Shown here piece by piece: positions 553 through 58,799 of a DNA stretch of 64,000 nt. The notes below the pieces were generated by a model that did no database searches, had not been told where the DNA came from, and worked only from the letters and a program-made list of their open reading frames with translations. The position numbers were made by a program, and so were the translations under genes. Each line of letters begins with the position of its first letter. Positions within the stretch are counted from its first letter, which is position 1. The stretch spans positions 1 through 64,000 of the forward strand of contig CAVNZM010000001.1 in assembly GCA_963693365.1 (NCBI GenBank), written 5' to 3'. The DNA comes from Amoebidium appalachense (lineage: Eukaryota > Protista > Ichthyosporea).

Positions 553-1108
553 CCTCCGTGTCGTTCGTTACCTGCTCGGCACCATCAACCTCGGCCTCTA
601 CTACAGGAAGAAGGCCCCCAACAGCAAGGTGCCCATCCTTGAGTGCTACTCGGATTCTGACTTTGCTGGTTGCCCCACCACCCGTCGTTCCACGTCTGGT
701 TACGTCATCCTCCTCGAAGGCACCCCCGTCACCTACCACTCCAAGCTGCAGACGATCACTGCAACTTCCACCTGTGAGGCCGAGCTCCTGGCCCTCAATG
801 CTGCCGTGCAAGATGTTGTCTGGCACCGTGATCTACTAAAGGAGCTGGGCTACCCCATGACCGAGCCCACCCCCGTGTACTGTGACAATCAGTCCACCAT
901 TGCTCTGGACCAGGTCCACTCCAACACCATCAAGCACCGGACCAAGCACATTGCCGTTCGTTACTTCAACACCAAGGACTACATCAACAGTGGGGACGTC
1001 ACTGTCACCTACATCGACACCAAGAAGAACCTGGCCGACATCTTCACCAAGCCTCTGGCTGGTCCGGCCCACGACACACACCGTGCCAACCTCAGTCTCC
1101 GTGACTGA
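553..1108 (+). pseudogene. pol: Copia C pol C-terminal fragment (RT end and RNase H)
   Basis: YSDSDFAG, EAELLA, CDNQS, KHIAVRY and ADIFTKPL motifs. Confidence 0.9.
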
Positions 1109-1216
1109 CCCGTGCACTGGTGTTCATCATCGAGTGGTTTCTGAGTAGGTTGGGGCCCTGGACAGCAGTTGACACACCTACGGTGATCAAGATGCCTCCC
1201 AACGAAAGTCTACTAC

Positions 1217-1923
1217 TGTCATCTTCACTTGATTCTCAGCAAGACTTAGAAGTTGAGTTTTGTATTTATTTATTAGTTGTTGTAGTTTGTTTCCTTTTCC
1301 TTTCTTCATTTCTTTCTTTCTTTTCCGTTTCCGTGTACACGACATCTTAGATCTGTGTACGTATCGACATACTTAGCTCGCGCACACGTATTGTCGTTTG
1401 TGTCAAAATCAATATATGTCATCCAATCATATCTCGTTTGTATTTCCCAAATATAGTAACTTACATTCCTTTCTCATTCCTTTCCCACGACGTAGCATTG
1501 TGCTATGTTCTCCAACTATTAGGAATAATTATATTTAGACGTGTTATGATAAGAACATGTATAAATGTATGTTATGAATTAATAGTTATATAAGTGGTTT
1601 CATTTTGTTAAATGTTTCCGTGCTTTTATTAGAAGTTTCTTTCATTAGAGGATTGAGTTTTATATTCTATGTGTCGACAGACATTTTAATCGATATATTT
1701 TACACTCATAGTTTTCGTTCTTTTGATTGGTTTATCGTTTCACATTCCCAAGTATAAAAGGGACCTCATCTTGAAATAAATAAAAAGCAGTCGTATTCAT
1801 TTCCTATGGTTCCAGAAATCGTTCCACCTCTCCGGTTGTGTTTTTCCCGTGTGTCTCTGTGTTGTGTATATCATAACACCCATCTGTGCTCTCTGCTTCT
1901 CCGTTTACCCACACAAAATAACA
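1217..1923 (+). mobile_element. Solo LTR of copia family A
   Basis: TG...CA termini, TSD ACTAC on both sides, near identical to 39024-39731. Confidence 0.93.
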
Positions 1924-2629
1924 ACTACTCCTCATAGTTTCTCTTCATCAGTGGGGACTCAGTCTTACATCGTCATATGTGTGCATCTTCAGTGGGGATT
2001 ATTCTCCACCATCCGTCGTTTATTTATATTCATATCCCACCATATATATTGGTTTTCTTCTATATTCGACCTTATATATATGTCGAACTGGGATGGCGTC
2101 CCAGTATAAATAATTATCTATAGCCATGGCGTGCTGGTTGACTGCCAGTCTAAACCTAGTCCACGGGATGCCCCTTCCCCGTGTCTTAACTGGTTGACAA
2201 CCAGTCTATAAATCAGTCCACAAGATGTTCGTGCCTTGTGTTTACCTGGGTGGTCCCCAGTATAAACCATTAGCCACCAACACGTCACACATGCACTAGT
2301 GTTTCCTATATATATATATATCGCCAATAACCACCATGATTTCTTATTTCGAGTCTTCAGAGGCAACCGTCGTTGTGTGCCTCTTCAGTTTTGATTCTCT
2401 CCTTCCCACCTCAAGGATCTTCGGTTTGCATCCTCGAGTGGGGAAACTTGAGTGTGACGGCCCCTCCTGTGTTTGGACCTCATCTACCGTCACATCAACA
2501 GACACGAGAACACAAACTTCAACCCCTTGAGTGGGGATGTTGGAATACGTCACCATGTATGACAGCAAGAGCCTTGAAGTATGTATGTGTCTTAGCTTGT
2601 TTGTATTCGTGTCTGCTTTCCTTCTTTGT

Positions 2630-2683
<54 letters not shown>

Positions 2684-3439
2684 CCCCCCCCCCCCCCCCC
2701 CCCCCCGTATCTCTCACTCCCTTGTTTCTGTGAGCACAGATATCTGTAGATCTGTGCACACCTGGCTCTCTTGCCTGATAAGAACTTATTGTGTTTTTAT
2801 TTCTGTTTGCTCTCCTCTGTTTATCTGAGAGGTAGCGTGATTGGCTAGCCTCACTCGTTGTCTTTCCTTTATTTCAAAATGGCTTAGTTTTGTTCTCAAA
2901 AGGATGGCTCGCCAATAGTCGCGAGCGAGTACATCTGTAGATTGTGTTGTGCATTCCAGTCTATTAATATATGTGTGTTGTGATTGGACAATAGATATAT
3001 ATGGAATTCGGTTTATTGCAAAGTGTCTTCACTTTGAGAGTGTCGACTATTAGGAAATATATGTATTTAAATAAGTTTCTTTATAGAGACGAACATAAAT
3101 ATATATGTGAGTTAATAGTGACTAGATGTATAATTACTTAATTTATTTAAGTAAGAGTTTCTAAACTTTAGTTTAATCGAAAGTTGGAATGCGTATGCTC
3201 TGTCGGAATGTGTTTTTCTATCTTCTGATAGAACCGATTGGTTCTCCCTCTTTAGTTGTGATAAGGTGATAAGTCGCAAGTACAAAAGGAACCGAGAGCA
3301 CAATAAAGAATCAGTTGTTGTTTGAAATCTTTCAATGTCTCGAGTGAACAACTCCGATTGCCCTCTCATTAATGTGTTAGTCGTGTTTTACATGACACCT
3401 CTGTGCACTCTGCTCCCTTAGACCCGTACAAAAACAACA

Positions 3440-4000: not shown

Positions 4001-5295
4001 GAGGTCCCGGCAGCGGGGGGGGGGGGGGGGGGGCAGCAGGGCCCCGGGGGGTTAGAGTAGGGCAGCTGGGCCCGAGGGAGGGTTTGCAGAGAGGGCAGCG
4101 GGGCCCTGTGCAGGGGAAGCCCGAGCACGCGCGGGTGTGGGCGGACACAGAGGTAGAAGAAGGGGGGGGGAGGGAGTGCTAGGTGAGTGCCAGGGGAGGG
4201 GAAGCTCGTGGGATGGGGGGGGGGGTGTTGTTTTGTGTGGGTAAACGGGGAAGCAGAGTGCACAGATGGGTGTTATGTTATACACAACACAGAGACACAC
4301 GGGAGAAACACAACCGGAGAGGTGGAACGATAACTGGGGCCATAGGAAATGATTCGACTGCTTGATATTTATTTCAAGATGAAGTCCCTTTTATACTTGG
4401 GAATGTGAAATCGATAAACCAATCAAAAGACGAAAACTATGAGTGAAAAATATATCGATCGAAATGTCTGTCGACACATAGAATATAAAATGCAATCCTC
4501 TAATAAAAGAAACTTCTAATAAAAGCACGGAAACATTTAACAAAATGAAACCACTTATGTAACCATTAGTTCACAACATACATTTATACATGTTCTTATC
4601 ATAACACGTCTAAATATAATTATTCCTAATAGTTGGAGAACATAGCACAATGCTACGTCGTGAGAAAGGAATGGGAAAGGAATGTAAGTTACTATATTTG
4701 GGAAAATACAAACGAGATCTGATTGGATGACATATTTAGATATTGACACAAACGACAATACGTGTGCGTGAGCTAAATATCTCGATGTGTACACAGATCT
4801 AAGATATCGGTGTACACGGAAACAGAAAGGAAAGAAAGAAAGGAAGAAAGGAAAAGAAAAAAGGAAACAAACTACAACAAACTAATAAACATATATAAAA
4901 CTCAACTTCTAAGTCTTGCTGAGAATCAGGGAAGATGACATCCCCACTCAAGGGTTGGAAGTTGGGTTCTCGTGAAGTTTGTTGATGTGACTGTTGATGT
5001 CAATACTCTCACACATGTAGAAGCAGGTGCCGTGAAGTCACAGTCAAGTTTCCCCACTCGAGAAGACAATGGAGAAGACTTGAAGGGGCAAGCCGGGGAA
5101 GAAAACCTATATACATGATGGTATATAAATAAACGACGGATGGTGGAGAAAGAAGTCCCCACTGAAGATGCACACACTGAAGATCGATGAAGACAGCAGT
5201 AGACTTTCGTTGGGAGGTGTCTCTACACGGTGATGTGTAGACCACTGGCCGGGGCCCCAACCTACTTGAAGACCACTGTAGATGAACCGGGGGGA

Positions 5296-5348
<53 letters not shown>

Positions 5349-7595
5349 CTCAGTCACGAAGACTGAGTGAAGCACGGTGCTGCTCGTGGGAGGGCCCGGG
5401 CAGGGGCTTGGTGAAGTTGTCGGCCACGTTGTCTTTGGTGGACACGTAGGTGACGACCACATCCCCACTCTTGATGTAGTCCTTCGTGTTGTGGTACCGG
5501 ACGGCAATGTGTTTGGTTCGGTGCTTGATGCTGCTGGTGTGCAGAAGGGCAATGGTGGACTGGTTGTCACAGTAGACGGGGGTGGGGTCGGTCATCGGGT
5601 AGCCGAGTTCACGGAGGAGATCACGGTGCCAGATGACGTTTTGAACAGCAGCATTGATGGCCAGAAGCTCAGCCTCGGTGGTGGATGTTGCCGTGATGGA
5701 CTGCAGCTTCGAATACCATGTGATGGGTATGCCCTTGAAGAAGATGATGTATCCGGTGGTTGAACGACGGGTGTTGGGGCAGTTGGCAAAGTCGGCATCA
5801 GAATAACACTCAAGCAAGGGGGTGTTGTCGTCGGATGCAGACTTGTCGTAGTGAAGGCCGAGGTTGGAAGTGCCGATGAGGTACCGAACTACACGGAGCA
5901 GACATTCCCATGCAAGTTTGGTTGGGTTGGCACTGAATCTACCGAGGTGGTGATGCCTGCTTGAGGCCGTAGAGTGCCTTCTTGAGTTTCCAGACCTTGT
6001 GCTCGTTGCCGGGGGTGATGAAGCTAGGTGGTGGCTCAATGTAGATGTCTTCTTGAAGAGGACTGTTGAGGAAGGCTGTAGAGACGTCGAGTTGATGAAT
6101 CTCATGGTTGCCGTCCACACCGATGGCAAGGAGGGCACGGACGGAGGAGGACATCACCACGGGGGAAGAGGTGTCACCGTAGTCAACACCGTAGACTTGA
6201 GTGAAGCCCTTTGCAACACCACGAGCCTTGATCTTGGTGTCACCGGCTGAGTTGAGGACTTTCTCAGTCACAATCCACTGGAACTTGATGATGTTGGCAT
6301 GAGGGGGGGATCAACGACGGTGAAGACATCCTTGGTGATGAAGGCTTGGTACTCGGAGGTGAGGGCAGCTATGACGGCATCACCGTTGGGACCGTTGCAA
6401 AGCTTTTGTATGCCCTTGGGGAGTTGGTCAATGTTGATGGTCGGTGCTGTGATGCTGACCAGTGCCGTAGGACCTGGTGGCTTGGTGAGACGTGCAGACC
6501 GACGAAGGTTGGTCTTGGGGGGGTCCTTGAGGGGGGTTGAGGCCGGGGAAGTGTTGTAGGCCGGGACAGGGGCATGGAAGCCAGGAATAGGACCGGTGGT
6601 GAGGGGGGAATCGGTGTCCACAGGGCTGCTCGAGGCCGAGTGGAAGGTGGGGGACCCAGGACGAACCGGAGTCATGTAGCCGGGTTGATGCACAGCAACG
6701 GGGGGTGCCGGTAGCAAGGGTTGTTGGCCAGTGGGGGGGGGGGCTCAGGGGAGGTACGGGTTCGACCGGGGCTGGTTGGTTGTGCCAGGACGGTTGGGAG
6801 ATGACTACAGACGGAATTTCATCGTCATCTTCGGAGGGGGGGTCCAATGTCGGCAGATCGGGTTTGGGGGGATCGGGGACCTGATTGGTGCTGCTCGTGA
6901 ATTTTGACTCGTCAAAGATGACGTCACGGCAGATCTTGACTTGGTTGCTGGCACGGTGGAGGATCTTGTGCGCCTTGGAGGGCAGATCCCAGCCGACGTA
7001 GGTGCCGACTCTGACGGTTGATGCAAGCTTGTTCCTCTTGGATCGGGGAACATGCACATAGGCAGGGGAGCCGAACACGTGGAGCTGGGAGACGTCGGGT
7101 TTGAGGCCGTGGAAGGCCTCGAAGGGGGTGTTGCCGTTGGAAGCAGATGACGGTGTGACGTTGATGATGTAGCCAGCATGTTTGAGAGCAGCAACCCGCA
7201 ACTTGGGAGAGAGAGGTTGATCCTTTTCTGCATGGAGGAAGCAACGGACTGTCTCTTGAAGTTCTCTCATCTTCCGTTCAACAACACCGTTGTGCTGTGG
7301 TGTGTCGACGGGGGCAAACTCCATGTTAATGCCTTTCTGCTTGCAGTAGGCCTCGGTGTCCTTGGATGTGAACTCAGAGCCGGAGTCAAACCGAAGATGG
7401 GTGACGATCTCAGGTGTCTGTCGTTCGACAGTTTCAACTAGAGACTGATTGTAGCTGAGGGTTTCAGCACGGTTGTAGAGGGGGAACACGGTGGTGTAAC
7501 CGGTGGCATCACAAACTGTTGGAAGATGGTATCGTTATCCAGTCCGATCGCATGAATCAGATCATGATCGGCTGGTGGCCTGCGAGATCTTAACC

Positions 7596-7668
7596 GATCT
7601 CGTAGCTCAGTTGGTAGAGCACTCGACCGGAGATAGAGGGGTCGCGGGTTCAAATCCCGTCGGGTTCA
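7596..7668 (+). tRNA. tRNA-like sequence in TRIM LTR (probably non-decoding)
   Basis: 73-nt cloverleaf, A box TAGCTCAGTTGG, B box GGTTCAAATCC, T5 run downstream; C33, G-A mismatch in anticodon stem, one acceptor mismatch. Confidence 0.8.
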
Positions 7669-7965
7669 TCTTTTTCTCATCCTCTTCTCGCTGGGGTAAA
7701 AGCCAGCACGCCTTTACTGGCGTCATCACAACCATTGGCAGTGGTTAGGTTGTGATCTCAAGGCTAGCAAGATCGCTAGTCTCTGCACCAGGACAAAATC
7801 CAAAATGGTAGCATGAACAGGGGTTCAGTGGGGACTGAGGGGGCAGTCCACCCTAACCTGATTCTGCGATTCGTCCTGAGTGGGGATGTTGGAAGATGGT
7901 ATCGTTATCCAGTCCGATCGCATGAATCAGATCATGATCGGCTGGTGGCCTGCGAGATCTTAACC

Positions 7966-8038
7966 GATCTCGTAGCTCAGTTGGTAGAGCACTCGACCGG
8001 AGATAGAGGGGTCGCGGGTTCAAATCCCGTCGGGATCA
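7966..8038 (+). tRNA. tRNA-like sequence in TRIM LTR (probably non-decoding)
   Basis: Same cloverleaf with fully paired acceptor stem GATCTCG/CGGGATC. Confidence 0.82.
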
Positions 8039-10897
8039 TCTTTTTCTCATCCTCTTCTCGCTGGGGTAAAAGCCAGCACGCCTTTACTGGCGTCATCACA
8101 ACCATCGGCAGTGGTTAGGTTGTGATCTCAAGGCTAGCAAGATCGCTAGTCTCTGCACCAGGACAAAATCCAAAACAAACACACACCAGAGCAACCTTGT
8201 AGCCTCCGTAGGAAGCACAGGGAGCTTCGAAGAAGTCCAGGTGCCACTTAGCACCGGGGATGGTGAAACGGGAACGGGTGCCGGGAAATGGAGCCTTGGT
8301 GGTCTTGCCAGACATGCAGCCGAAGCAGTCACTGTGGTCGTGTGACTTGAGGGAGGGGGGCATGCCGATGACAAGCTCATTCTTGGCCATTCTGGTGACG
8401 GTGGATAGGGCACGGTGGCCGAGACGGTTGTGCCAAAGGGTAAGGTCGTCGGTTGGTTGAGTCCTTGCTGTGTAGGCTTGGACCCACGGGTGTTGAGGGG
8501 TGTCAATCACGTAGTCAGTGATGTAGTAAAGGCCGTTGAGGGGAGTGAGGTCGGAAATAATGTCACCATTACGGCTGTAGAGGAACGACGGATGAGTGTC
8601 TGCATCGTCACAGTGACCAAGGAGGCCGGCAGTTGAGGCCATGGAGGCAGACACGAGGAAGGACGGTGACTCGGGTACGTAGAGAGCATTGATGCTGCAC
8701 GGGGTTGAGTTGCCGTTGTAGTGCAGGGTCATGTTGATGATGCCACGGTGTGTGGCATTGACGGTGCCAAGGCCGTGAATGGGGGTGGGGGGACACGGGG
8801 TAAGGGAGGAGAAATACTCCTTGATGGGGCAGATGTGTGCATTACAAGCATTGTCCCAGACGGGGTCGTCACGGTCGGGTGTGCCGGTGGAGGAGATGAG
8901 TGCAAATTGCACACTCTTGTTGCCTTTCTCCTGCTTGGCACGACGAGCAACAGCACAGCCAGGCTCTGGGCATGATGTGATGTGGTGGGGTTCATGGCAG
9001 TAGGAACACTCCACTCTCTTTTTGTTGTGCTGTCGGTTACGGTTGTCCCTGTTACCACGGGGGTAAGGGGAAGTTGAACGGGGGCCGGGTGACTTGGAGG
9101 ACGGACAAGGATCACGGGAACGGGACGGGGAACGGTGAGGTGTATGCTCACGTCAGGGATACGGTTACGGAGGTCACCGGGGGGAAGCACTCTGCTCTGG
9201 AGTGCACGAAGAGGACAGTTGTTGACGGTTGCACCAGTCCCTGCGTCTATGAGGCCGGCACGGATTTCAGCTCCTCGGATGTCACTGATGAGCTGGTTGA
9301 AGGACGGGTAGGCCTTGTTGTTCATCCAGTAGTCGGAGCAGAGACGTTCAATGTCGGAGCAGACCAGGGCCGTGTTCTTCCGGAGGTGAAGGAAGAACTT
9401 ACGTACGACATCCTTGTGCTGGACGGGCTCGTCGAGGCAGGCAAGTGTCGTAGCCAGACGTTGGAGACGGGTGAGGTATGCTGTGACGTCACGGTTGGGG
9501 TAGTCTCGGAGTTCAAGCTCCTCGCAGGTGGCTTGAATCTGGTGACTCGGGCCTCCTTCTCTGCCACATACGCCATACGCAGGTTGTGGAAGACTTCTCC
9601 ACCGTGAACACCGTCTTGCATCCGGCCGGAGTCGTAGAGCTCTGTCGGATGGACGGACTGGTTGAGGATCTGGTCGAGGACGTCGGAAGCTTTCTTGTAG
9701 GAGTCCTTGGTGGCGTAGCCTAGCCACTGGTTGGCCTCAGTGCCGTCAACCCACTGTGGCCTCTTGATAGCGTCAACGAATTTCTCGGCAATGGTTGTTC
9801 TAATGAACCGGTGGATAAGTGGCTCCCACTCGAAATAATTGAGACGTTTCTCGTCTCTTTTCTCGGACGGATTCCATATTGCAAGGTTGATGTACGACGG
9901 TTTGTCAGTCATGATTGAAGCGGTAAGACGGAGGAATTTCGCGGTTGTAACGAGATTGTGTGTTAGCGTGCAAAGGGGCCGTAAACCTGTTGTTTTGTGT
10001 GGGTAAACGGGGAAGGAGAGTGCACAGATGAGTGTTATGTTATACACAACACAGAGACACACGGGAGAAACACAACCGGAGAGGTGGAACGATAACTGGG
10101 GCCATAGGAAATGATTCGACTGCTTGATATTTATTTCAAGATGAAGTCCCTTTTATACTTGGGAATGTGAAATCGATAAACCAATCAAAAGACGAAAACT
10201 ATGAGTGTAAAATATATCAATCGAAATGTCTGTCGACACATAGAATATATAATGCAATCCTCTAATAAAAGAAACTTCTAATAAAAGCACGGAAACATTT
10301 AACAAAATGAAACCACTTATGTAACTATTAGTTCACAACATACATTTATACATGTTCTTATCATAACACGTCTAAATATAATTATTCCTAATAGTTGGAG
10401 AACATAGCACAATGCTGAGAAAGGAATGGGAAAGGAATGTAAGTTACTATATTTGGGAAAATACAAACGAGATCTGAATGGATGACATATTTAGATATTG
10501 ACACAAACGACAATACGTGTGCGTGAGCTAAATATCTCGATGTGTACACAGATCTAAGATATTGGTGTACACGGAAACAGAAAGGAAAGTAAGAAAGGAA
10601 GAAAGGAAAAGGGAAAAGGAAACAAACTACAACAAACTAATAAACATATATAAAACCCAACTTCTAAGTCTTGCTGAGAATCAGGGAAGATGACAGGGGG
10701 GGGAGTAAAAATTATGTGCAGTGGGCAGAATAACGTCTTTGTGTAGGGACATTTATTCTTGGCGCGCGCGGGCGCCGTAGTTGGCCTGCGAAATTTTGTA
10801 CTCAGCCCTATTGGCCCGTTTTCCCGAGCTCCGTTTCCTTATACCCGTGTGTCCTAGCTCCTAGCCCCTATGTTCTATCTGTGTTTGTGCACGTAGA

Positions 10898-12793
10898 CTA
10901 GGCATTGTGCTTGCAGTCTTTGCGGGGGTGTGTGCCAGAGCAGAGCGGGCACACGTGGGAGAAGGGGCAGGGCTGCTTAGCGCAGGACCGACCGTTAATG
11001 TGGAAATTGTCATCTTCCCATGATTCACGGCAAGACTTAGAAGTTGAGTTTTATATATGTTTATTAGGTTGTTGTAGTTTGTTTCCTTTTCCCTTTTCCT
11101 TTCTTCCTTTCGTTCTTTCCTTTCTGTTTCCGTGTACACCGATATCTTAGATCTGTGTACACATCGAGATATTTAGCTCACGCACACGTATAATTGTCGT
11201 TTGTGTCAATATCTAAATATGTCGTCCAATCAGATCTCGTTTGTATTTTCCCAAATATAGTAACTTACATTCCTTTCCCTTCTTTTCTCACGACGTAGCA
11301 TTGTGCTATGTTCCCCAACTATTAGGAATACTTATATTTAGACGTGTTATGTTAAAGAACATGTATAAATGTATGATGTGAACTAATAGTTACATAAGTG
11401 GTTTCATTTTGTTAATGTTTCCGTGCTTTTATTAGAAGATTACTTTCATTAGACGATTGCGTTTTATCTTCTATGTGAAGACAGACATTTCGATCGATAT
11501 ATTTTACACTCATAGTTTTCGTCTTTTGATTGGTTTATCGATTTCACATTCCCAAGTATAAAAGGGACTTCATCTTGAAATAAATATCAAGCAGTCGAAT
11601 CATTTCCTATGGCCCCAGTAATCGTTCCACCTCTCCGGTTGTGTTTCTCCCGTGTGTCTCTGTGTTGTGTATAACATAACACCCATCTGTGCACTCTGCT
11701 TCCCCGTTTACCCACACAAAATAACAGAAATTCCTGCAGTGCGTCGCGGGTAGATCCACGGGTCGGGCCGGTTTTGCCGAGCCGGGTTGCGGGCCAGGGC
11801 GGTTGGGGGTTTGGCCCCCGCCGGGCTTGTGGGGCGGCTTGAAGCCGTCAACACCACAGCCGGGCTTGGGGTACATGGGGCAGGCCGCGCTGGGGTGGTC
11901 GGGGAAGCCACAGCGCTGACATGCGTCCGGGATGAGCAGAGTGGGTGGCAGGAGGAGATCCTGGTGGAGTTGGGCGAGCAGGTTGGGACACTCGATCGGA
12001 GCCCGACCCTGCTGGTGGGCAACGGTTCGGGCGTATACGTCATAGTTGTGGATCTGGGCCCACGGGTATCGGGTGCTGAGGCGAGTGATGTGCTGAGTCC
12101 AAAGTACGTCTTTGTCCGTGGGGAGGCCGAGGTGGTGCTTGGCGGCCATGTAATGGGTCCAAGCCTGGATCCAAATGACGAGTGAACGCAGGGGAACGGG
12201 TTTGTCCTGGCGAAAAGTCTCGATGCTGCCGTCGTCGGCCATGCGCAGATGCTGACATTTCTTGGATGGGGCCAAGAGGGCGGCGGGGGTGAACTTATAC
12301 AGGTCGACGAAACGATTGGCGCGCAAATCTGCCAGCACATCCGCGGGGGGAGCGGGAGTGTGCCCGGCTGAATGTCGCCAGTGTTCTCACCTGTGATGGG
12401 GGGCGCGGGCAGGGCAGGTAGGTCTAGGTCAGGGCCGAGATCATGCAGCCCCGGGGAAACCTCCCCGGGTGCGGAGGGCGCGGCGGGGGGCGCGGGAGGG
12501 TCGCGGTTGGTGAGAGCAGCCAGGACGCCAGCCATCTGGGTGCTGATGGCGGTGAGGGCGGCAAGGACGGCGTCTTGAGAAGTCATCTGCGGGGACGGCG
12601 GGGCCTGAGGGGGGACTTCAGGAGGGGAGGGGGGACTAGCCGGCGGGTCCGGGTCCGTGGTGGTATGGGCCGCTGGAGGCGCGTCAGTGTCCGCGGGAGC
12701 GTTGGTCAGCCTGTGGCGGAGGTCGCTGCGGGTCAGGCGCTTGGGTGCCGCGGCAGGGGCGGTGGCTGAGGCCTGGCGCTTTTTCGGCGGCAT
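10898..12793 (-). pseudogene. gag: Ngaro N1 gag (ORF1), interrupted by solo LTR
   Basis: MPPKKRQ start, WAQIHNYD, CQRCGFPDHPSAAC and C-terminal Cys/His fingers. Confidence 0.85.
11008..11726 (+). mobile_element. Solo LTR of copia family A (variant)
   Basis: TG...CA termini, TSD GAAAT. Confidence 0.92.
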
Positions 12794-13161
12794 GCTGACC
12801 GGCGTACGGAAAGATAGGGAGATTTGAAAAGAAAATATAGCTGTAAAGCTGTAGGTGCTAAACACAGAAGATGTGTTATTGCCTGCTGATCTGCTAAAAA
12901 CTGTCGTGCTTATATACCTACGGCTACCGAACTGAGCCAATCAAAACCGATCTAGTGTTATGTGAAATCTTATCCTGAGCCAATCAGACTCGGTCTAGTG
13001 ATCTGTGGAGATCTGATGTTTTGATCGGCTAATAGGTGCCCGTATGCGGGCAGCCGAACGCGAACTGCTAAAACATGAAACGAAGCCTGTTGATATCGGA
13101 CACCCATCCTACGTGTTTACCCAGAAAAATATTTATGTCAATAATTTCCACAAATAAAACC

Positions 13162-14031
13162 TCGACGAAACGATTGGCGCGCAAATGTGCCAGCACATCC
13201 GCGGGGGGAAGCGGCAGTGTGCCCGGCTGAATGTCGCCAGTGTTCTCACCTGTAATGGGGGGCGCGGGCAGGGCAGGTAGGTCCAGGTCAGGGCCGAGAT
13301 GCAGTCCCGGGGAAACCTCCCCGGGTGCAGGGGGTGCGGCAGGGGGCGCGGGAGGGTCGCGGTTGGTGAGAGCGGCCAGGACGCCAGCCATCTGGGTGCT
13401 GATGGCGGTGAGGGCGGCAAGGACGGCGTCTTGAGAAGTCATCGGCGGGGACGGCGGGGCCTGAGGAGGGACTTCAGGAGTAGAGGGGAGAGTAGCCGGA
13501 GGGTCCGTGGTGGTATGGGCCTCCGGAGGCGCGTCAGGGCCCGCGGGAGCGTTGGTCAGCCTGTGGCGGAGGTCGCTGCGGGTCAGGCGCTTAGGTGCCG
13601 CGGCATGGGTGGTAGGCTGAGGCCTGGCTTTTTTTCGGCGGCATGCTGACCGGCGGAGAGAAAGATAGGGAGAATGAAAAAGGAATATATAGCTGTAAGG
13701 CTGTGAGTGCTAAACACAGAAGATGTGTTTGTAGCTTGCTGATCTGCTAAAAACTGTCCGACTCGTGCTTATATACCTAAGCCTACCGAATTGAGCCAAT
13801 GAAAAATCGATCTAGTGATATGTGAAATCTGATCCGAGCCAATCGAAACTCGGTCTAGTGATATGTGGAATCTGATGTTTTGATTGGCTAATAGGTGCCC
13901 GTGTGCGGGCAGCCAACCGCGAACTGCTAAAACACGAAATGAAGCCTACATGGTTATTGTGATACCGAACACCCATCCTACGTGTTTACCCAGAAAAAAT
14001 ATTCATGTCAATAAATTCCACAAATAAAACC
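13162..14031 (-). mobile_element. Ngaro 5' fragment N2 (A repeat and gag N-terminus)
   Basis: A repeat begins ggttttatttg at 14031; gag breaks at ANRFV where the N1 5' end abuts. Confidence 0.85.
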
Positions 14032-16029: not shown

Positions 16030-17241
16030 TCACTTAAGAAGAGAGGCGAATACACGTGTGGTGGTGGCAGCAATGGAGGCCGGACGAAGTCGGGTATAGA
16101 TCAGGAAGCAGTCGGAGGACCACCTGCCGAGTTGTTTGATCTGGGAGTCGTCGACCCCGGCCTCAGCCAGTGCTGTGGCCCCCCCGATGCGGAGGCTGTG
16201 TCCGGCAAACCGGGAGGGTGAGAGGCCTGCCCGGGAGAGGAGGGCACGGAAATCGGCAGAGAAAGCACTCTTGGTGTAGGGGATGCCACCGAGACTGAAG
16301 AGGGGGTCGTCGGGTTGACCGGACGTTGTATCCAGGAACTGCCGGAGGACTCGGAGATGGGCTGGGGAGAAGTGGGTGAGGGGCAGGGCAGCTAGGGTGA
16401 CGTTGACACCTCGGGCCTGTACATCCGTCTTAGAGGTTGGCAGGTGGAGGGTGGCATGGGACAAAGTACCGGTGGGGGTGTAGCTGAACTTTAGGTCACG
16501 TCCTTCCGTTTAACGTGACGGGACGGGTCGAAAGAAGTCAGGGTTTTGGAGGTAAATTCCCCTGAACGGAGGAGACCACAGAAACCGACGATGAGGGCCG
16601 TCCATAGCCGGAGATTGGCCGAGGAGGCCGTGGTGGGGCACTGGCCCTGGAGTAGGCGGAGGTGGGAGGGGAGGAGGGGTTCCCTGGTAGATGAGCGGGG
16701 TCGGATGTTGTGAGAAAGCTGCCATCGGCCCACCCCCCGTAGGAACCAGGCCAGAGACTTGTCGTGGGGGTAGGGAGCAGGGAGGCCCTTGTCGAGGTGG
16801 AGCCTGGTGATGGCCGAATTGTAGCCGGTTAAGGAAGAGGCCTGTACCCCTCGTTGGGCACACCAGGCGAGAAAAAGTTGCACGGTGTGTGGGGGAGGCC
16901 GGGAGGGAGGACCCGGAGGAGGATTGCAGCCGAGATGCCACACAGAAATCGATGAACACTTTTTGCACCCGGGAGTAAAAGGCCCGAGAGTCGAGGTTGA
17001 GACTCAGGGCCTGGCATTCCTGCAGGGTAGTGGTGGCTCGAAGCAGCTCGGCCGGAGCAAAGTGGGGGGCCAATCTGCCAGTGTTGCTCCGGAACGGGAG
17101 ATCTGGGGGGGGGGGGGGGGGGGGGTTAGCCCAAGGGAAGGGATAGGTACTCGTGGACCCAGGAGGGGAAGGTGCAAGGCTCCGGTTGCAGGGAAGGTCG
17201 GAGTCGTCGGGCCCGGGGAAGTTGGTTACGAGAAATGGCAT
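16030..17241 (-). pseudogene. Tyrosine recombinase of N4 (two frameshifts, near 16890 and 16492)
   Basis: LLRSGE, SKTD, GHSLRIGGAT, LGRWSS and catalytic Tyr (LIYTR). Confidence 0.92.
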
Positions 17242-18798
17242 CGGCCAGATGGTTGAGGGGTCCTGGTAGGTAGGATGCCTGTAACGTAAATTGGTATTGC
17301 ATTTCCATGCGGGTGATGAACCGAATAAGTTTGGCCATCACGGGGTGGGGGGAAGACCGGGAGTGCAGGTCAGACACAGCACCCGTGTTGTCGCATAAAA
17401 TACGGACATGGTGGGTGGACCAGGAGGGGGCCCAGAGGGCCACGGCGGCTGCGATGGCCAGGAGTTCGATGACGGAAGAACCGAGTTTACCCTCATGAGC
17501 ATAGAGGGCTTGGGTGGAGGGGGACCAGGGCATGAAGAACCATTGGTCGAGCCAGTGGCCTCCTAGACCCACCGATCCGGCAGCATCAGTGGCCAGGGTG
17601 GTGTATGTGGGGGGTGTGATGAGGTGCACCCCATTCCATGATGTGAGGAACTGGTGCCATTCGGCTATGTCGGCCCGGGCGGCAGCAGTCAGTCGTCTGT
17701 GGTGGTGGCCGGCAAGGTGCGGGTGGGTCCGGAGAAGGGCCCATAGGCGCTGGGAGAAGGCCCTCCCGGGGGGAACCAGCTGGGCACACCAGGTGAGTTT
17801 GCCGAGGAGGGACTGGAGGTCCCGAATGGTGATGGTGGGCTTTGGGTGGGAAGTGAGGTCGAGTAGGTCCGAGAGCTTGGAAGCCGGGATTCGTGCCTCC
17901 ATGGCGATGGAGTCGAATTCGATACCGATGAAGACGACACGGGTAGCCGGGCCCTGCATCTTGTCTTCGGAGATGGCAATGTGCAGCTCTCGGCAGAGTT
18001 GCAGGAAGGTGGATAGGTGACGTTGGCACTGCTCTTGTGTGGGGGCGACTATAATCCAGTCGTCTACGTAGTGGCGGATGAGGGTAATACCGTGCTGGTG
18101 TGCCAGCCACTGTAGGGTGGACGCGATCCGTTCCCAGATGGCTGGGCTAGATTTCAGGCCGAAGGGCAGTCTGGTTTCAACGTAAAAATGCCCTTGCCAT
18201 TTGAATGCCAGTAAGTAGTGGTCTTCCGGTCGGATGGGCATGTGCCGGAAGGCAGCCTGTACATCTGCCACGGCCATGTAGCAGCCGGGGCCTGCGTCGA
18301 GAATGAGTTGGGTGACATCCCGGGCGCGAATGTACTGAAGTTCGTCGGGGTAGGTGATGCTGTCATTGACACTGCTACCCCGGGGCCAGGAGAGGTGGTG
18401 GATTCGACGGTATTTGGGGGGGTTCCCTTTCTTGGTAACGGCGCCGATGGGGGAGGAACGGTGGACCGGAAATTCGGCAAAGAATTGGGCCGGGGAGAGG
18501 GGGCCGCGCAGGTGGCCAAGGGCGACTTCTTTGGCAATATCCACCGTGATAGCGGCAGCTGCCTCCGGGGTGGTGGGTAGGTTGGGGCCCACCCGAGAGG
18601 TGGAGGGGCCGCGATAGCCGATGTCGACGCCGTCGACATCGTGGAGGAGTGTGCGACGAAGATTGGTCCGGGTAGGAGGCCAGCAGTTCCCGGAGGCGGG
18701 AGGTGTCAATGTGGTGCTGGGGCAGCGGGCGGGCTTCCGGGTCTGAGCCTCGGGGGAAGGGGTGGTTAGCAAGGGTGGTGTACCCTTGGGGGGATCCC
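17126..18798 (-). CDS. pol: Reverse transcriptase/RNase H of N4 (N-terminus cut by copia B1)
   Basis: ADVQAAFRH, LPFGLKSSP, YVDD; RNase H TDAA, IELLAI, CDN, ADAISR. Confidence 0.92.
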
Positions 18799-21700
18799 TG
18801 TTATAATACGTGGTATTTACATATTGTAAGATCTTCTCAGTTCGTGTTATGTTTTCATTCATTCACTTAGTGAAAGAGATGTGCTCCTTGTACGTAAATT
18901 ATGAGATCGATCTCCAGTGTATTTGAGTACTTGTAATCGTGTTGTGTCGGCTATATTCGTGTGTTTAGATATCGATTACAGCAACTGATTATAGGTACAC
19001 GAGTCTACCCAGTGAGGGAGAAACGTGTACATGTTATGTGTACATGAATATCTTCGGTTATAACTGTGTTTTGCTGTTCGTGTTTTCTGTCCTGCTTTCT
19101 TTTCTTTTTCCTCTTTCTTCTTCTTTCTTTTCTCTTTCTTTCTTCTCTTGTTTCCTTTCACATAATTATATTTCTCTCTCACTAATATACGTTGAGTAGA
19201 TTTATATTACTCGTTATGTTTTGATTGGTAGAAAAACACTTAGGCTACACTTTAGCTTGTCAGGTATGATTCATAGCTTAGTCAAACACTTTTGTTTTGT
19301 GTGTTGCCGTACTATATCCAATCAGTGGACTTAGTCAGAAAATGTCTGAGTCTTTGTAGCCGATGATAGGTTAGAAACATCACCTCTTTCCTCGTTACTC
19401 TTCACCTCTTTTCTTTCTTATAGCTGTGACCTATGGTGTGCGTTCCTGTGCCTCCGGATCTATCCGGGAAATAATCAGTTAATTGTGATTGGTTATTTTA
19501 GACATAGATCTGATTTCCGACTGGTCGGAAATCATGTATGGATTTAACTTAAGGGAATTTCAGGTATTTATTAGCGATCAAAATAAATTGAGTTCAGTCG
19601 TGTCTAAACATTGATGTCTGTTGTGTACACTGCTCCGATCGTTTCGTGCTTTGTCGTTGTGTGTGTTTGTGGTGTTTTCACACTGCACCACTGTGTCTCT
19701 GCTTTCATCCCAAATACTTATACAATTAACAGGTTATGCAGCCCTTTTGCACGCTCCCTACACACATCTAGCACTCGCGCTCGTTTTTCAATCATGGATC
19801 CAAACAAAACTGGCGTAAACAAAATCACCATGTGGAAAGGTGAAGGGAAGACTGGTCCCGATAGCAAAACCACCTATTTTCAATGGGAAATCATTTTTCT
19901 CGGCATGATGACCGGCACTAAAGGTGTCCGACTCGTGGATGTTGTACTTGCTGACAACTACGTCCCCCCTACCACCGTCGCGGTTGACGGTGAACCCCCC
20001 TTCTATGGCTACGGCACTACCGTTGAACTCAAGGAGGCCCGCAATTGCCTCCTGCTCCATATGATACAGAACATCGACCCTTCCGTCCTCACCACAGTTG
20101 CCCAGTACCGTATTGGCATGGACCCTGAACGGGCCATGTGGAAATTCCGTCAACACTACCTCCAAGGCAAACCCGATCAGATCCGCATCCTTCACCGTCA
20201 GTGGGATGCCTGTGCCCTTCAGCCCGGTGAATCATTCACCACCTACCTGAGCCGTCTGCAGACCATCGTAAACCAGCTCCAGTCTCTCCAAGATGAGTCC
20301 ATTCACTTCACTCGTCTAGCTGAGAAGTTCTTCAATGAACTCACCACCAGAGACGACCTCACCCCCGAGTTCAACCGTCTTATCGAAGACTATCACTTCG
20401 GTGATAAGCTATTCCCCGACTTCGAGTCCCTCCACAACCACGTCAAGGGCATCGAGTTACGTCAGGACCTCAAGATGCAACTCCGGAGCAACCGTGCCCA
20501 CCGTGCCTCCAAGTCCAGCATGGCATTAAATGCCAGTGCTATCCCCCGTGATCTTCCTCGCCGTGACTTACGCACCCGACTTGACCGTACCCCTGGTACG
20601 GACCTCCGAACTCGTCTCTCCCGTCAGCACACCCGATCCCGTTCCCCTCACCGGCCTGCCTTCCGGTCCACGTCTCGTTCCCCCAGTCGTTCCCGTTTCT
20701 CGGGTTCCCGTCGTTCTGATTCCCCGGCTCGTTCTAACACCCCGCCCGTGAAAGGATGCTCCTACTGCCACGAGCCTGATCACACGATCATCGATTGCCC
20801 TGAGCCGAAATGCCGTATGTCCAGACACAACCGTTCCCGTCAAGGCAGTGAGAAATCTGTCTCCTTTGCTTTCTCGGCATACAATGCTAGCTCCGTCCCC
20901 GTGTCCTCCGACCCTGCCTGGGATTCCGGGTGCAACATGACTGTCTGCCCCACCCGTGAGTTCTTCCATGACCTCACTCCCCTTCCGACACCGACTCCCG
21001 TTGCTGCCTTCAATGGCACCCCCGTCTTGGCCACTCACACCGGCCATATCGTCATCAACACCACCACCGACCATGGCACTGCCACCCTTACCATTGAAGC
21101 CTACTACACCCCGTCTGGCCAAGCCTTCCTCATTTCAACATCCCAAGCTGCTGCCGAATACATCAAGGGTGATTTGAACGATGCCTCCACTCCGTCATTC
21201 CTCTTCGACCGACTCACCGGCCGTCATCTCGTCAACCTCCGTCTACACAACGGTCTGTATTACTTCAAGGACTACACCATTCAACCACCCACTCGTCCTG
21301 TGGCTCTGGCTGCCACTACCAGTGTTAACCCATCCATCTGGCACCATCGTCTGGGGCACCGTGCTATGACCAGCATCAAGGACATGGTGAAACACGACCT
21401 TGTTATTGGTCTCCCCTCCTCTGTCCTCGACTGTGATGTTCCTGATTGTCATGGCTGCATTATGGGTAAAACCACCAAGGCTCCGTTCAAGGGTGACCGT
21501 CCTCACTCCAACATCCCCGGTCATGAATGGCATTGGGATTTTTTTGAGCCTACCACAACCTCGTACGGAGGTTCCAAGGTTGCTCTCGTCACTGTCTGCC
21601 GTGCCTCTGGACTCGTCAAGATCTACCCGATGGCCGACCGTACCACCACCCTGGACATTCTCACAGCTCACACCAACCTCGTTGCCACCCATGCCCCCTC

Positions 21701-25575: not shown

Positions 25576-25585
25576 ATCCCGGCAG

Positions 25586-25616
<31 letters not shown>

Positions 25617-26005
25617 CGGCAGGGCCCCGGGGGGTTAGAGTAGGGCAGCTGGGCCCAAGTGAGGGTTGGCAGGGAGGGCAGCGGGGCCCTGTGCAGGGAA
25701 TGTGCCCGAGCACGCGGGGGTGTGGGCGGACACAGAGGTAGAAGAAGGGGGGGGGAGGGAGTGCTAGGTGAGTGTAAGGGGGGGGGGGAAGGCTCGTGGG
25801 GGGGGAGTAAAATTATGTGCAGTGGCCAGAATAAACGTCTTTGTGTAGGGACATTTATTCTTGACGCGCGCGGGCGCCGTAGTTGGCCTGCGAAATTTTG
25901 TACTCAGCCCTATTGGCCCGTTCTCCCGAGCTCCGTTTCCCTGTACTCGTGTGTCCTAGCTCCTAACCCCTATGTTCTAGCTGTGTGTGTGGGTGTGCGC
26001 GTAGA

Positions 26006-27180
26006 CTAGGCATTGTGCTTGCAGTCTTTGCGGGGGTGTGTGCCAGAGCAGAGCGGGCACACGTGGGAGAAGGGGCAGGGCTGCTTAGCGCAGGACCGAC
26101 CGTTAATGTGGAAATTCCGGCAGTGCGTCGCGGGTACTACTAGATCCACGGGTCGGGCCGGTTTTGCCGGGCCGGGTTGCGGGCCAGGGCGGCTAGGGGT
26201 TTGACCCCCCGCCGGGCTTGTGGGGCGGCTTAAAGCCGTCAAGACCACAGCCTGGCTTGGGGTACATGGGGCAGGCCGCGCTGGGGTGGTCGGGGAAGCC
26301 ACAGCGCTGACATGCGTCCGGGATGAGTAGAGTGGGTGGCAGGAGGAGATCCTGGTGGAGTTGGGCGAGCAGGTTGGGACACTCGATCGGAGCCCGACCC
26401 TGCTGATGGGCAACGGTGCGGGCGTATACGTCATAGTTGTGGATCTGGGCCCACGGGTATCGGGTGCTGAGGCGAGTGATGTGCTGAGTCCAAAGTACGT
26501 CTTTGTCCGTGGGGAGGCCGAGGTGGTGCTTGGCGGCCATGTAATGGGTCCAAGCTTGGATCCAAATGACGAGTGAACGCAGGGGAACGGGTCTGTCTTG
26601 GCGAAAAGTCTCGATGCTGCCGTCGTCGGCCATGCGCAGATGCTGACCTTTCTTGGATGAGGCCAGGAGGGCGGCGGGGGTGAACTTATACAGGTCAACG
26701 AAACGATTGGCGCGCAAATCTGCCAGCACATCCGCGGGGGGAAGCGGGAGTGTGCCCGGCTGAATGTCGCCAGTGTTCTCACCTGTGATGGGGGGCGCGG
26801 GCAGGGCAGGTAGGTCTAGGTCAGGGCCGAGATGCAGCCCCGGGGAAACCTCCCCGGGTGTGGAGGGCGCGGCGGGGGCCGCGGGAGGGTCGCGGTTGGT
26901 GAGAGCAGCCAGGACGCCAGCCATCTGGGTGCTGATGGCGGTGAGGGCGGCCAGGACGGCGTCTTGAGAAGTCATCTGCGGGGACGGCGGGGCCTGAGGG
27001 GGGACTTCAGGAGTGGAGGGGAGAGTAGCCGGCGGGTCCGGGTCCGTGGTGGTATGGGCCGCTGGAGGCGCGTCAGTGTCCGCGGGAGCGTTGGTCAGCC
27101 TGTGGCGGAGGTCGCTGCGGGTCAGGCGCTTAGGTGCCGGCAGGGGCGGCGGCTGAGGCCTGGCGCTTTTTCGGCGGCAT
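26006..27180 (-). CDS. gag: Ngaro N4 gag (frameshifted)
   Basis: Same protein as 58800-59970; CCHC and CCCH-like fingers. Confidence 0.85.
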
Positions 27181-30100: not shown

Positions 30101-30825
30101 ACGGCGCTGAAGCCAACCAGTGGCTAGGCTACGCCACCAAGGACTCCTACAAGAAAGCTTCCGACGTCCTCGACCAGATCCTCAACCAGTCCGTCCACCC
30201 GACCGAGCTCTACGACTCCGGCCGGATGCAAGACGGTGTCCACGGTGGTGAAGTCTTCCACAACCTACGTATGGCGTATGTAGCAGAGAAGGAGGCCCGA
30301 GTCACCCAGATCCAAGTCACCTTCGAGGAGCTTGAACTACGAGACTACCCCAACGTCACAGCATACCTCACCCGTCTCCAACGTCTGGCTACGACACTTG
30401 CCTGCCTCGACGAGCCCGTCCAGCACAAGGATGTCGTACGTAAGTTCTTCCTTCACCTCAGGAAGAACACGGCCCTGGTCTGCTCCGACATTGACCGTCT
30501 CTGCTCCGACTACTGGATGAACAACAAGGCCTACCCGTCCTTCAACCAGCTCATCAGTGACATCCGAGGAGCTGAAATCCGTGCCGGCCTCATCGACGCA
30601 GGCACAGGTGCAACCGTCAACAACCGTCCCCTCCGTGCACTCCAGAGCAGAGTGCTTCCCCCCGGTGACCTCCGTAACCGTATTCCTCGACGTGAGTTTG
30701 TCCTGGTGCAGAGACTAGCGATCTTGCTAGCCTTGAGATCACAACCTAACCACTGCCGATGGTTGTGATGACGCCAGTAAAGGCGTGCTGGCTTTTACCC
30801 CAGCGAGAAGAGGATGAGAAAAAGA

Positions 30826-30898
30826 TGATCCCGACGGGATTTGAACCCGCGACCCCTCTATCTCCGGTCGAGTGCTCTACCAACTGAGCTACGAGATC
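30826..30898 (-). tRNA. tRNA-like sequence in TRIM LTR
   Basis: Reverse complement of 7966-8038. Confidence 0.82.
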
Positions 30899-31195
30899 GG
30901 TTAAGATCTCGCAGGCCACCAGCCGATCATGATCTGATTCATGCGATCGGACTGGATAACGATACCATCTTCCAACATCCCCACTCAGGACGAATCGCAG
31001 AATCAGGTTAGGGTGGACTGCCCCCTCAGTCCCCACTGAACCTCTGTTCATGCTACCATTTTGGATTTTGTCCTGGTGCAGAGACTAGCGATCTTGCTAG
31101 CCTTGAGATCACAACCTAACCACTGCCGATGGTTGTGATGACGCCAGTAAAGGCGTGCTGGCTTTTACCCCAGCGAGAAGAGGATGAGAAAAAGA

Positions 31196-31268
31196 TGATC
31201 CCGACGGGATTTGAACCCGCGACCCCTCTATCTCCGGTCGAGTGCTCTACCAACTGAGCTACGAGATC
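31196..31268 (-). tRNA. tRNA-like sequence in TRIM LTR
   Basis: Reverse complement of 7966-8038. Confidence 0.82.
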
Positions 31269-32930
31269 GGTTAAGATCTCGCAGGCCACCAGCCGATCAT
31301 GATCTGATTCATGCGATCGGACTGGATAACGATACCATCTTCCAACAGTCCCCTCCGTGCACTCCAGAGCAGAGTGCTTCCCCCCCGGTGACCTCCGTAA
31401 CCGTATTCCTCGACGTGAGCATACACCTCACCGATCCCCGTCCCGTTCCCGTGATCCTCGTCCTTCCTCCAAGTCACCCGGCCCCCGTTCAACTTCCCCT
31501 TACCACCGTGGTAACAGGGACAACCGTAACCGACAGCACAACACCAAGAAGGTGGAGTGTTCCTACTGCCATGAGCCCCACCACATCACAGCATGCCCGG
31601 AGCCTGGCTGTACAGTTGCTCGTCGTGCCAAGCAGGAGAGAGGCGACAAGAGTGTGAAATTTGCACTCATCTCCTCCACCGGCACACCTGACAGCAACGA
31701 CCCCGTCTGGGACAGTGCTTGTAATGCACACATCTGCCCCATCAAGGAGTATTTCTCCTCCCTTACCCCGTGTCCTCCCACCCCCATTCACGGCCTCGGC
31801 ACCGTCAATGCCAAACAACGTGGCATCATCAACATGACACTGCACTACAACGGCAAACCAACACAGTGCAGCATCAATGCTTACTACGTACCCGAGGCAC
31901 CGTCTTTCCTCGTGTCTACCTCCATGGCCTCAGCTGCCGGCCTCCTAGGTCATTGTGACGATACAGACAACCACCCGTCGTTCCTCTACAGCCGTAATGG
32001 TCACATCATTACAGATCTCACCCCCCTCGACGGTCTCTACTACATCACTGACTATGTGATTGAGACTCCTAAACACCCGGGGGTCCAAGCCTACACAGCA
32101 AGGACTCAACCACCCGCCGACCTCACCCTTTGGCACAACCGTCTCGGCCACCGTGCCCTCTCCACCGTCACCAGGATGGCCAAAGATGAGCTTGTCATCG
32201 GCATGCCCCCCTCCCTCAAGTCACCCGACAACAGTGACTGCTTCGGCTGCATGTCTGGCAAGACCACCAAGGCCCCCTTTCCCGGCACCCGTTCCAAGTT
32301 CACCATTCCCGGTGCTAAGTGGCACCTGGACTTCTTCGAATCTCCCTGTACTTCCTACGGAGGCTACAAGGTTGCTCTGGTGTGTGTTTGTGATGCCACC
32401 GGTTACACCACCGTGTTCCCCCTCTACAACCGTGGTGAAACCCTCAGCCACATTCAGTCTCTCGTTGAAACCATTGAACGTCAGACACCTGAGATCGTCA
32501 CCCATCTTCGGTTTGACTCCGGCTCTGAGTTCACCTCCAAGGACACCGAGGCCTACTGCAAGCAGAAAGGCATCATCATGGAGTTTGCCCCCGTCGACAC
32601 ACCACAACACAACGGTGTTGTTGAACGGAAGATGAGAGAACTGCAAGAGACAGTCCGTTGCTTCCTCCATGCCGACAAGGACCAACCTCTCTCTCCCAAG
32701 TTGTGGGTTGCTGCTCTCAAGCATGCAGGCTACATCATCAACGTCACACCGTCATCTGCTGCCAACGGCAACACTCCCTTCGAGGCCTTTCACGGCTTCA
32801 AACCCGACGTCGCCCAGCTCCACGTGTTCGGCTCCCCTGCCTATGTGCATGTTCCCCGGTCAAAAAGGAACAAGCTGGCATCAACCGTCAGAGTCGGCAC
32901 CTACGTCGGCTGGGACCTGCCCTCCAAGGC

Positions 32931-58419: not shown

Positions 58420-58560
58420 GGTTTTATTTGTGGAAATTATTGACATAAATATTTTTCTGGGTAAACACGTAGGATGGGTGTTCGATACCAACATAACCAT
58501 GTAGGCTACATTTCGTGTTTTAGCAGTTAGCGGTTGGCTGCCCGCACACGGGCACCTATT

Positions 58561-58683: not shown

Positions 58684-58799
58684 ACGACAGTTTTTAGCAG
58701 ATCAGCAAGCTACAAACACATCTTCTGTGTTTAGCATCCACAGCCTTACAGCTATATATTCCTTTTTCATTCTCCCTATCTTTCCCTACGCCGGTCAGC

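What the first reader, a model, noticed from the sequence alone, without database searches (positions are those of the whole stretch)
7517..8175. Mini LTR retroelement (TRIM) carrying a tRNA-shaped Pol III gene in each LTR
Seen: two near-identical insertions (also 30697-31347) with 289-bp LTRs, a PBS, a PPT and an 81-bp interior. Each LTR holds a 73-nt cloverleaf with consensus A and B boxes and intact acceptor, D and T stems. The anticodon arm is defective: C33, a G-A mismatch, and GGA without the long Ser variable arm. Known: Cassandra TRIMs carry 5S sequence, and I recall tRNA-bearing TRIMs described as Helenus, so the architecture has precedent. Inference: this is a young Pol III-driven parasite of the local copia machinery (it shares the gagtgggga PPT) and possibly a new family or host lineage.
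Basis: partly seen in the sequence, partly recalled or inferred. Interest (0 to 1): 0.85.

Follow-up and report, generated by a model that had tools for sequence, protein, structure and literature searches.

The report
Transcribed tRNA-bearing mini-retrotransposon in animal relative
A 659-base, gene-less jumping element with a tRNA look-alike in each terminal repeat sits twice in this DNA and turns up whole in an RNA data set; it fits the known Helenus type, likely comes from a single-celled relative of animals where that type was not found in print, is likely copied by RNA polymerase III, and has an unusual AA end that may explain one botched insertion.

Summary
Real and as described. Two copies, 99.4% alike (7517-8175 +; 30697-31347 -), with 289-bp LTRs, an 81-bp interior, PBS, PPT and a tRNA-like unit in 4 of 4 LTRs. 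It meets the published definition of Helenus (Kojima 2024), so it is a new family of a known kind; this scan has noted such elements in at least 15 other genomes. Added here: (1) the host is likely Amoebidium or a close ichthyosporean, absent from the published host table; (2) a run shown to be RNA by spliced joints holds the whole 370-nt LTR+interior unit at contig depth 1,632-2,533 while the multi-copy Copia flank has 0-7; (3) the LTRs end TG...AA, not CA, and copy 2 lacks 8 nt at that end and is flanked by a 71/72-bp duplication, the pattern of one-ended integration; (4) the Copia elements in the window share its PPT but not its PBS, so the helper is not shown. Pol III drive is inferred from A/B boxes and a T5 run; contigs give no start, end or strand.

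The parts
7517..8175 (+). TRIM copy 1, complete, 659 bp, inserted in the integrase region of Copia element A1 (4226-10695, minus)
7517..7805 (+). 5' LTR, 289 bp, TG...AA; two differences from the other LTRs (7665, 7736)
7596..7668 (+). tRNA-like unit, 73 nt; A box 7603-7614, B box 7647-7657; defective anticodon arm
7671..7675 (+). T5 run, the only run of 4 or more T on the sense strand of the 370-nt unit; likely leaky Pol III terminator
   Evidence: leakiness inferred (yeast) and read-through contig
7806..7813 (+). PBS TGGTAGCA, directly abutting the LTR; likely 3' end of initiator tRNA-Met
   Evidence: host tRNA set not available
7878..7886 (+). PPT GAGTGGGGA, directly abutting the 3' LTR; shared with Copia A and C
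7887..8175 (+). 3' LTR, 289 bp, with tRNA-like unit 7966-8038
7512..7516 (+). TSD CAAAC, left copy (right copy 8176-8180)
   Evidence: empty site in Copia A2 and in runs
30697..31347 (-). TRIM copy 2, 651 bp, in the gag region of Copia element A2 (29152-39731, plus); 5' LTR 31059-31347, interior 30978-31058, 3' LTR 30697-30977 lacking its last 8 nt; tRNA-like units 31196-31268 and 30826-30898
30626..30696 (.). 71-bp target duplication, left copy (single in the sister element A1)
31348..31419 (.). 72-bp target duplication, right copy (one extra C in a C run)

Best explanation
This is a gene-less LTR retrotransposon (Helenus-type TRIM) that is present whole in RNA, is likely transcribed by RNA polymerase III from the tRNA-like unit in its LTR, and is likely copied and inserted in trans by a Copia element not seen in this window. 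Shown: the architecture, two recent insertions, many copies in DNA runs, and RNA contigs that run unbroken from the tRNA-like unit through the T5 run, U5, PBS, interior and PPT into U3. Inferred: Pol III would start a few bases before 7596, sometimes read through the T5 in the 5' LTR and stop at the T5 in the 3' LTR, giving a roughly 450-nt RNA whose repeated end (R) is the tRNA-like unit. A host tRNA (likely initiator Met, by its 3' end) would prime at the PBS. PBS and PPT abut the LTRs, so the cDNA would be blunt-ended as in Ty1. Its U5 end reads AA, a predicted poor integrase substrate: copy 1 went in normally (5-bp TSD), and copy 2 likely went in by its good U3 end only, with host repair joining the trimmed U5 end 71 bp away. 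The tRNA-like unit is likely a promoter and not a decoding tRNA or the primer.
For: Architecture and TSD; 5-bp TSDs readable at 6 of 7 local Copia elements or solo LTRs (the seventh lies between G runs). tRNA-like unit. Helenus definition, size range 311-1263 bp, 5-bp TSD and Copia dependence of fungal families: PMC10886601. 7 Helenus interiors begin with the same TGGTAGCA. Runs X19 and X20 are RNA: two GT..AG joints in a host gene, absent from DNA runs X1 and X3. X19 holds the element at depth 1,632-2,533 with Copia flank 0-6.8, while in 3 of 3 DNA runs the flank is as deep as or deeper than the element, so DNA carry-over does not explain it. One 335-nt X19 contig spans 7588-7922. Yeast Pol III releases only partly at T5. 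AA end: the empty site excludes a CA-ended reading; another X3 insertion also runs to 7805; no other letter is listed at 7804 or 8174. Ty1 integrase used AA ends only with millimolar Mn2+ (PMC8487063). One-ended retroviral integrations show a normal end, a truncated end and a large duplication (PMC5041404). No self-priming: only 4 nt of the PBS match the unit's 3' end plus CCA.
Against: Contigs cannot give start, end, strand or level, and the library type is not on record; if it was poly(A)-selected, abundance would fit Pol II as well. Only one RNA run was laid on the element. The lack of other T runs and of a poly(A) signal is not significant (95% of shuffles have at most one T4 run; 7% have the signal). 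An intact acceptor, D and T arm with a near terminator should favour short products and RNase P/Z cutting; a nearby hairpin strengthens weak terminators in yeast. No helper with a matching PBS or AA end was found, and no genome was available. The copy-2 junction was not checked against reads, and it is 1 of 2 insertions. The yeast and HIV papers are analogies from other systems.
Confidence: 0.7

Rival explanations
1. Same TRIM, but the replicating RNA is a Pol II transcript (from U3, a tandem array or a host gene) and the tRNA-like unit is a captured SINE head, enhancer or insulator.
For: 2012 RNA run of unknown library type holds U3 as deeply as the rest; the T5 lies 2 nt after the unit; Cassandra tandem arrays are found in mRNA (PMC7215508); Kojima states Pol III function is unvalidated for Helenus.
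Against: No TATA or poly(A) signal in the LTR while 3 of 3 Copia LTR families have a poly(A)-type hexamer (weak); A and B boxes are intact in 4 of 4 LTRs; 0 of 10 X19 contigs run on into unlike flanking sequence, against 40 of 628, 14 of 463 and 14 of 157 partly laid in DNA runs (weak, few contigs).
Confidence: 0.2
2. The TRIM is mobilised by the local Copia families A, B or C.
For: Shared PPT; an 18-nt exact match across PPT and LTR start with family C (2528-2545); 5-bp TSDs; B elements are as young (LTR differences 0.1-0.4%); B likely uses the same tRNA in halved form. A CA-preferring helper would fit the aberrant copy 2.
Against: PBS class differs in 5 of 5 local elements with a 5' LTR; no other similarity to the TRIM; Copia A is near absent from RNA run X19. 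Family C's 5' end is not in the window, so its PBS is unknown.
Confidence: 0.25
3. The 71/72-bp duplication and 8-nt loss at copy 2 come from later repair or from an assembly error, not from integration.
For: Not checked with reads; the two duplicate copies differ by one C in a run; the window is repeat-rich.
Against: The U3 end is exact and the loss is at the non-CA end; both duplicates carry A2-specific letters and A1 has the segment once.
Confidence: 0.35
4. The unit is a working tRNA-Ser(GGA) spread by the element.
For: ARAGORN call; Rfam 57 bits; three arms paired; MFE fold is a cloverleaf-like form.
Against: C33, G30-A40 mismatch, no long variable arm (Ser identity rules recalled); fold z only -1.6; RNA contigs continue across both ends of the unit; isotype disagreement is typical of Helenus.
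Confidence: 0.03

Closest known systems
Helenus (tRNA-type TRIMp3), Kojima 2024, PMC10886601; main text read whole, supplement parts 1, 9, 10 of 11 read and whole file searched; figures not seen
   Same: Under 1 kb, two LTRs each with a tRNA-like unit and A/B boxes, PBS and PPT, no protein, no self-priming; like the fungal families in 5-bp TSD, TGTT start, interior of about 80 bp, TGGTAGCA PBS and short T run after the unit.
   Different: Likely ichthyosporean host, not in Table 1; 9 of 12 exact motifs absent from the data file and the other 3 generic; TG...AA ends (TA ends seen in some fungal families, AA not seen in the parts read); 137 nt of U5 after the unit, longer than in the fungal LTRs read; RNA evidence, which that paper does not give.
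Cassandra and Ajax (5S-type TRIMp3); PMC10886601 text, PMC7215508 passages; the 2008 Cassandra paper was not held
   Same: Pol III-type promoter inside each LTR; read-through of intervening LTRs reported for Cassandra.
   Different: 5S-derived, not tRNA-derived; Cassandra's R is 18 nt, here a predicted 80 or so.
Non-TGCA Copia elements of plants (10.1101/137141 and PMC9804982, passages)
   Same: Short LTRs with a non-CA end, mostly Copia.
   Different: TGAA occurs 0 times in both main texts; lotus lists C, G or T at that position. Supplementary Table S2 of the preprint was not seen.
One-ended aberrant retroviral integration (PMC5041404, passages) and Ty1 integrase end rules (PMC8487063, passages)
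   Same: Normal end plus truncated end plus long host duplication; AA as a weak end.
   Different: Those are drug- or mutation-induced, or in vitro; here a natural family carries the weak end.

Membership tests
Helenus | TRIM: two LTRs, under 1000 bp | tested here: met
   659 bp, 289+81+289
Helenus | tRNA-derived sequence in the LTRs with box A (TRGCY..YGG) and box B (GGTTC) | tested here: met
   4 of 4 LTRs
Helenus | PBS and PPT in the interior | tested here: met
   the primer tRNA is inferred, host tRNAs not available
Helenus | 4- or 5-bp TSD | tested here: met
   copy 1 CAAAC with empty site; copy 2 aberrant, so 1 of 2
Helenus | No retroelement protein encoded | tested here: met
   longest Met-started frame 101 aa, spanning LTR and interior; not searched against Pfam
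Helenus | tRNA-like unit is not the primer | tested here: met
   4-nt match only
A described Helenus family | Sequence similarity to a listed consensus | tested here: not met
   exact-motif search of the data file only; no alignment; line breaks can hide motifs; Repbase and Dfam not searchable
TRIMp3 | Transcription by Pol III from the LTR | tested here: inconclusive
   RNA present; polymerase, start and strand unknown
Copia-dependent TRIM | Helper sharing PBS or interior sequence | tested here: inconclusive
   PPT shared, PBS not; no genome
Cassandra / Ajax | 5S rRNA-derived LTR sequence | tested here: not met
   Rfam finds only tRNA to E 5
Retrozyme | Hammerhead ribozyme in the LTR | tested here: not met
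   no Rfam match to E 5
Functional tRNA-Ser | U33, paired anticodon stem, long variable arm (recalled rules) | tested here: not met
   alignment

The most novel reading that the evidence does not exclude
A Pol III-driven retroelement that stays highly transcribed in a host that methylates and silences young transposons, that has fixed a non-CA end and so sometimes integrates by one end, and whose genome RNA folds its two end copies into one outer tRNA (first copy's acceptor strand and D arm with the second copy's T arm, as in the predicted fold) so that RNase P, RNase Z and CCA addition would finish and protect it. It would be the first Helenus with direct transcript evidence and a tRNA-processing step in LTR replication.
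Probability: 0.15. Interest if true: 0.72.

Novelty: new member of a known kind. Interest (0 to 1): 0.43.

Why it matters
Helenus was defined from sequence alone and its Pol III promoter is untested. This family is young, present in RNA, and likely lives in an axenically cultured animal relative for which a genome, methylome and demethylation RNA-seq are published (PMC11244446), so the TRIMp3 idea and escape from methylation silencing become testable. It extends Helenus to a lineage between fungi and animals with the fungal (Copia, 5-bp) signature. The AA end offers a natural test of integrase end rules. Practically, such copies inflate tRNA gene counts (ARAGORN called 4 false tRNA-Ser in 64 kb) and are missed by TG...CA LTR finders.

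Tried and rejected
No whole genome held, so no genome-wide copy, TSD or helper count. Exact-pattern scans found 0 loci in metagenome contigs and 0 in viral contigs. No listed holder was on record as RNA; X19 and X20 were shown to be RNA only by laying. Copy number: summed depth at 7821 over single-copy depth gives about 154 (X1) and 91 (X3), but summed contig depth is no copy number; read as tens to low hundreds at most. CA-ended reading (286-bp LTR, 4-bp TSD) rejected by the empty site. Origin of the tRNA-like unit unresolved: best phage tRNA matches are 77-83% to Ile and Asp; a Phe origin is a recalled, untested lead. U5 folds well (z -4.1) but Copia LTR controls do too (z -3.3, -3.0), so not specific. 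Copia A RT search gave only 28-38% identities among the 120 listed and did not place the host. Atlas gave no result. No look-alike among earlier scan findings by sequence or genome. Literature: 'TRIMp3' finds only Kojima as relevant; Ichthyosporea+TRIM+retrotransposon 0 papers; the Amoebidium genome paper has 0 'tRNA' and 0 'Copia' in its main text (supplements not read).
Full report
Observation. The element is as described. Copy 1 has LTRs at 7517-7805 and 7887-8175 that differ at 2 of 289 positions, an 81-bp interior and the 5-bp TSD CAAAC. Copy 2 lies on the minus strand at 30697-31347; its 5' LTR equals copy 1's 3' LTR and the interiors differ at one base. ARAGORN and Rfam mark a 73-nt tRNA-like unit in 4 of 4 LTRs (53-57.4 bits) and nothing else in the window. 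An A-box plus B-box pattern occurs 4 times, against 0 in 100 shuffles of the window. The anticodon arm is defective as stated. A T5 run follows 2 nt after the unit.

Corrections. The LTRs end TG...AA. A reading with a CA end and a 4-bp TSD is excluded because the empty site in sister element A2 has the target once, matching empty-site joints in three DNA runs. A second insertion in run X3 also continues to the last A, and no other letter is listed at that position. Copy 2 lacks the last 8 nt of its 3' LTR and is flanked by a 71/72-bp duplication of its own Copia host; sister element A1 has that segment once.

Surroundings. The window is a nest of Copia elements (Pfam rve, RVT_2, gag_pre-integrase). 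Copy 1 sits in the integrase region of A1 and copy 2 in the gag region of A2. Family A covers 24% of the window, so two hits in it are only mildly unusual. LTR pairs differ by 0.1-1.7%, so all are young. The TRIM's PPT is shared with families A and C, and C matches 18 nt across PPT and LTR start. But 5 of 5 local elements with a 5' LTR have a PBS starting GGTT, and TGGTAGCA occurs only in the two TRIM copies. In Kojima's data many fungal interiors start GGTTATGAGCCC and the text names the anticodon loop of initiator tRNA as the dominant primer, with the 3' end as a minor class; 7 interiors start TGGTAGCA. I infer the two classes from this; Figure 3 was not seen. The local Copia are therefore not shown to be the helper.

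Host. One exon of a host gene (47185-47889) found 1 protein among 470 candidates, P0001, at 47% identity, an EukProt entry labelled Amoebidium parasiticum. It matches three exons of the window gene. The runs that carry the window gene with no differences also carry a paralogous piece, at depth 45 versus 53 in X1 and 116 versus 179 in X3, whose flanking letters translate to the P0001 sequence at that place. The host is therefore likely Amoebidium or a very close ichthyosporean. The published Helenus table lists basidiomycetes, six animal phyla and Selaginella only.

Runs. The element lies in DNA runs under three organism codes (X1, X3, X8). Both alleles at 7821 are about equally deep in X1 and X3, so each is in many copies; the T at 7665 has single-copy depth in X3 (185 versus 179), so it is a real private change. 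X19 and X20 show two GT..AG joints that X1 and X3 lack, so they are RNA. In X19 the element's contigs tile the whole 370-nt LTR+interior unit at depth 1,632-2,533, the Copia flank has 0-6.8, host exons 404-629 and introns 26-36. In 3 of 3 DNA runs the flank is as deep as or deeper than the element, so DNA carry-over cannot give this. The main contig (7588-7922) has the copy-2 sequence and crosses the T5, the PBS and the PPT. Limits: one RNA run, contigs only, no start, end, strand or true level, library unknown, minor alleles may be dropped, and X19 is a different sample from X1.

Mechanism. Shown: structure, recent insertion, many copies, RNA that reads through the T5. Inferred: Pol III starts just before 7596, leaks through the 5' T5 and stops at the 3' T5, so the tRNA-like unit is R. 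Yeast Pol III is released only partly at T5, though a nearby hairpin strengthens weak terminators. The absence of other T runs or a poly(A) signal is within chance. PBS and PPT abut the LTRs, so the cDNA would be blunt, as for Ty1, whose integrase used AA ends only with millimolar Mn2+ (PMC8487063, passages). Retroviruses with one bad end give a normal end, a truncated end and a long duplication (PMC5041404, passages), which is the pattern at copy 2; this rests on one unverified locus. Amoebidium methylates recent transposons most heavily (PMC11244446, section 6 and passages); a Pol III promoter that ignores this would explain RNA from the TRIM beside a quiet Copia, but that is a hypothesis. 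The predicted 451-nt RNA folds with the first unit's acceptor strand paired to the second unit's (z -4.9); identical copies make that swap easy, so it is a lead only.

Comparison. The element meets each structural feature of Helenus (PMC10886601) and resembles the fungal, Copia-type families. No listed family matched: 9 of 12 exact motifs were absent and 3 were generic; this is not an alignment, and Repbase and Dfam could not be searched. It is not Cassandra, Ajax or a retrozyme. TGAA ends appear in neither of two plant surveys' main texts. Searches for an ichthyosporean report found none. This scan holds 56 findings with these words in at least 15 genomes, among them anther-smut fungi, an early-diverging fungus, a yeast and a diatom (unchecked), so new Helenus hosts are common.

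Verdict. A new family of a known kind, with a likely new host lineage, RNA evidence and an odd end. Interest 0.43.

Noticed in passing
window 44653-48100: Expressed host gene with introns at about 45143-45943 and 46322-47199, weak GDSL/SGNH hydrolase match; an upstream exon joins from about 44080. It resembles NXPE/PC-esterase proteins (recalled label).
   Followed up: partly
window 16030-18862 (minus): RT (RVT_1) next to a tyrosine recombinase frame (PF00589, E 1e-8): likely a DIRS/Ngaro-type retrotransposon.
   Followed up: partly
window 554-3431: 3' part of a third Copia family (C), about 73% like A, interrupted by a solo A LTR (1217-1923); its LTR starts TGTTGGAA like the TRIM. Best local helper candidate, 5' end missing; its right end was not fixed.
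   Followed up: partly
window 7553 (run X19): A 5-nt deletion variant in U3 makes up about a fifth of RNA contig depth but is not listed in three DNA runs; RNA shows only the A allele at 7821 while DNA is about half G. Expression may come from few copies.
   Followed up: no
window 28313-29151 and 39732-39855: Inverted, rearranged Copia A LTR fragments abut both ends of element A2.
   Followed up: no
window 11727-13165, 25576-27600, 58416-60397, 57502-58419, 60593-61530, 63668-64000: A further repeat family in several copies with internal repeats and no Pfam match in the frames tested.
   Followed up: no
window 7849-7857: The interior motif CACCCTAAC also occurs in several rust Helenus interiors that start TGGTAGC; seen after the fact and possibly chance.
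   Followed up: no
window 44276 (run X3): A loose end reads into a Copia B LTR start, suggesting a polymorphic or assembly-absent insertion in this host gene's intron.
   Followed up: no
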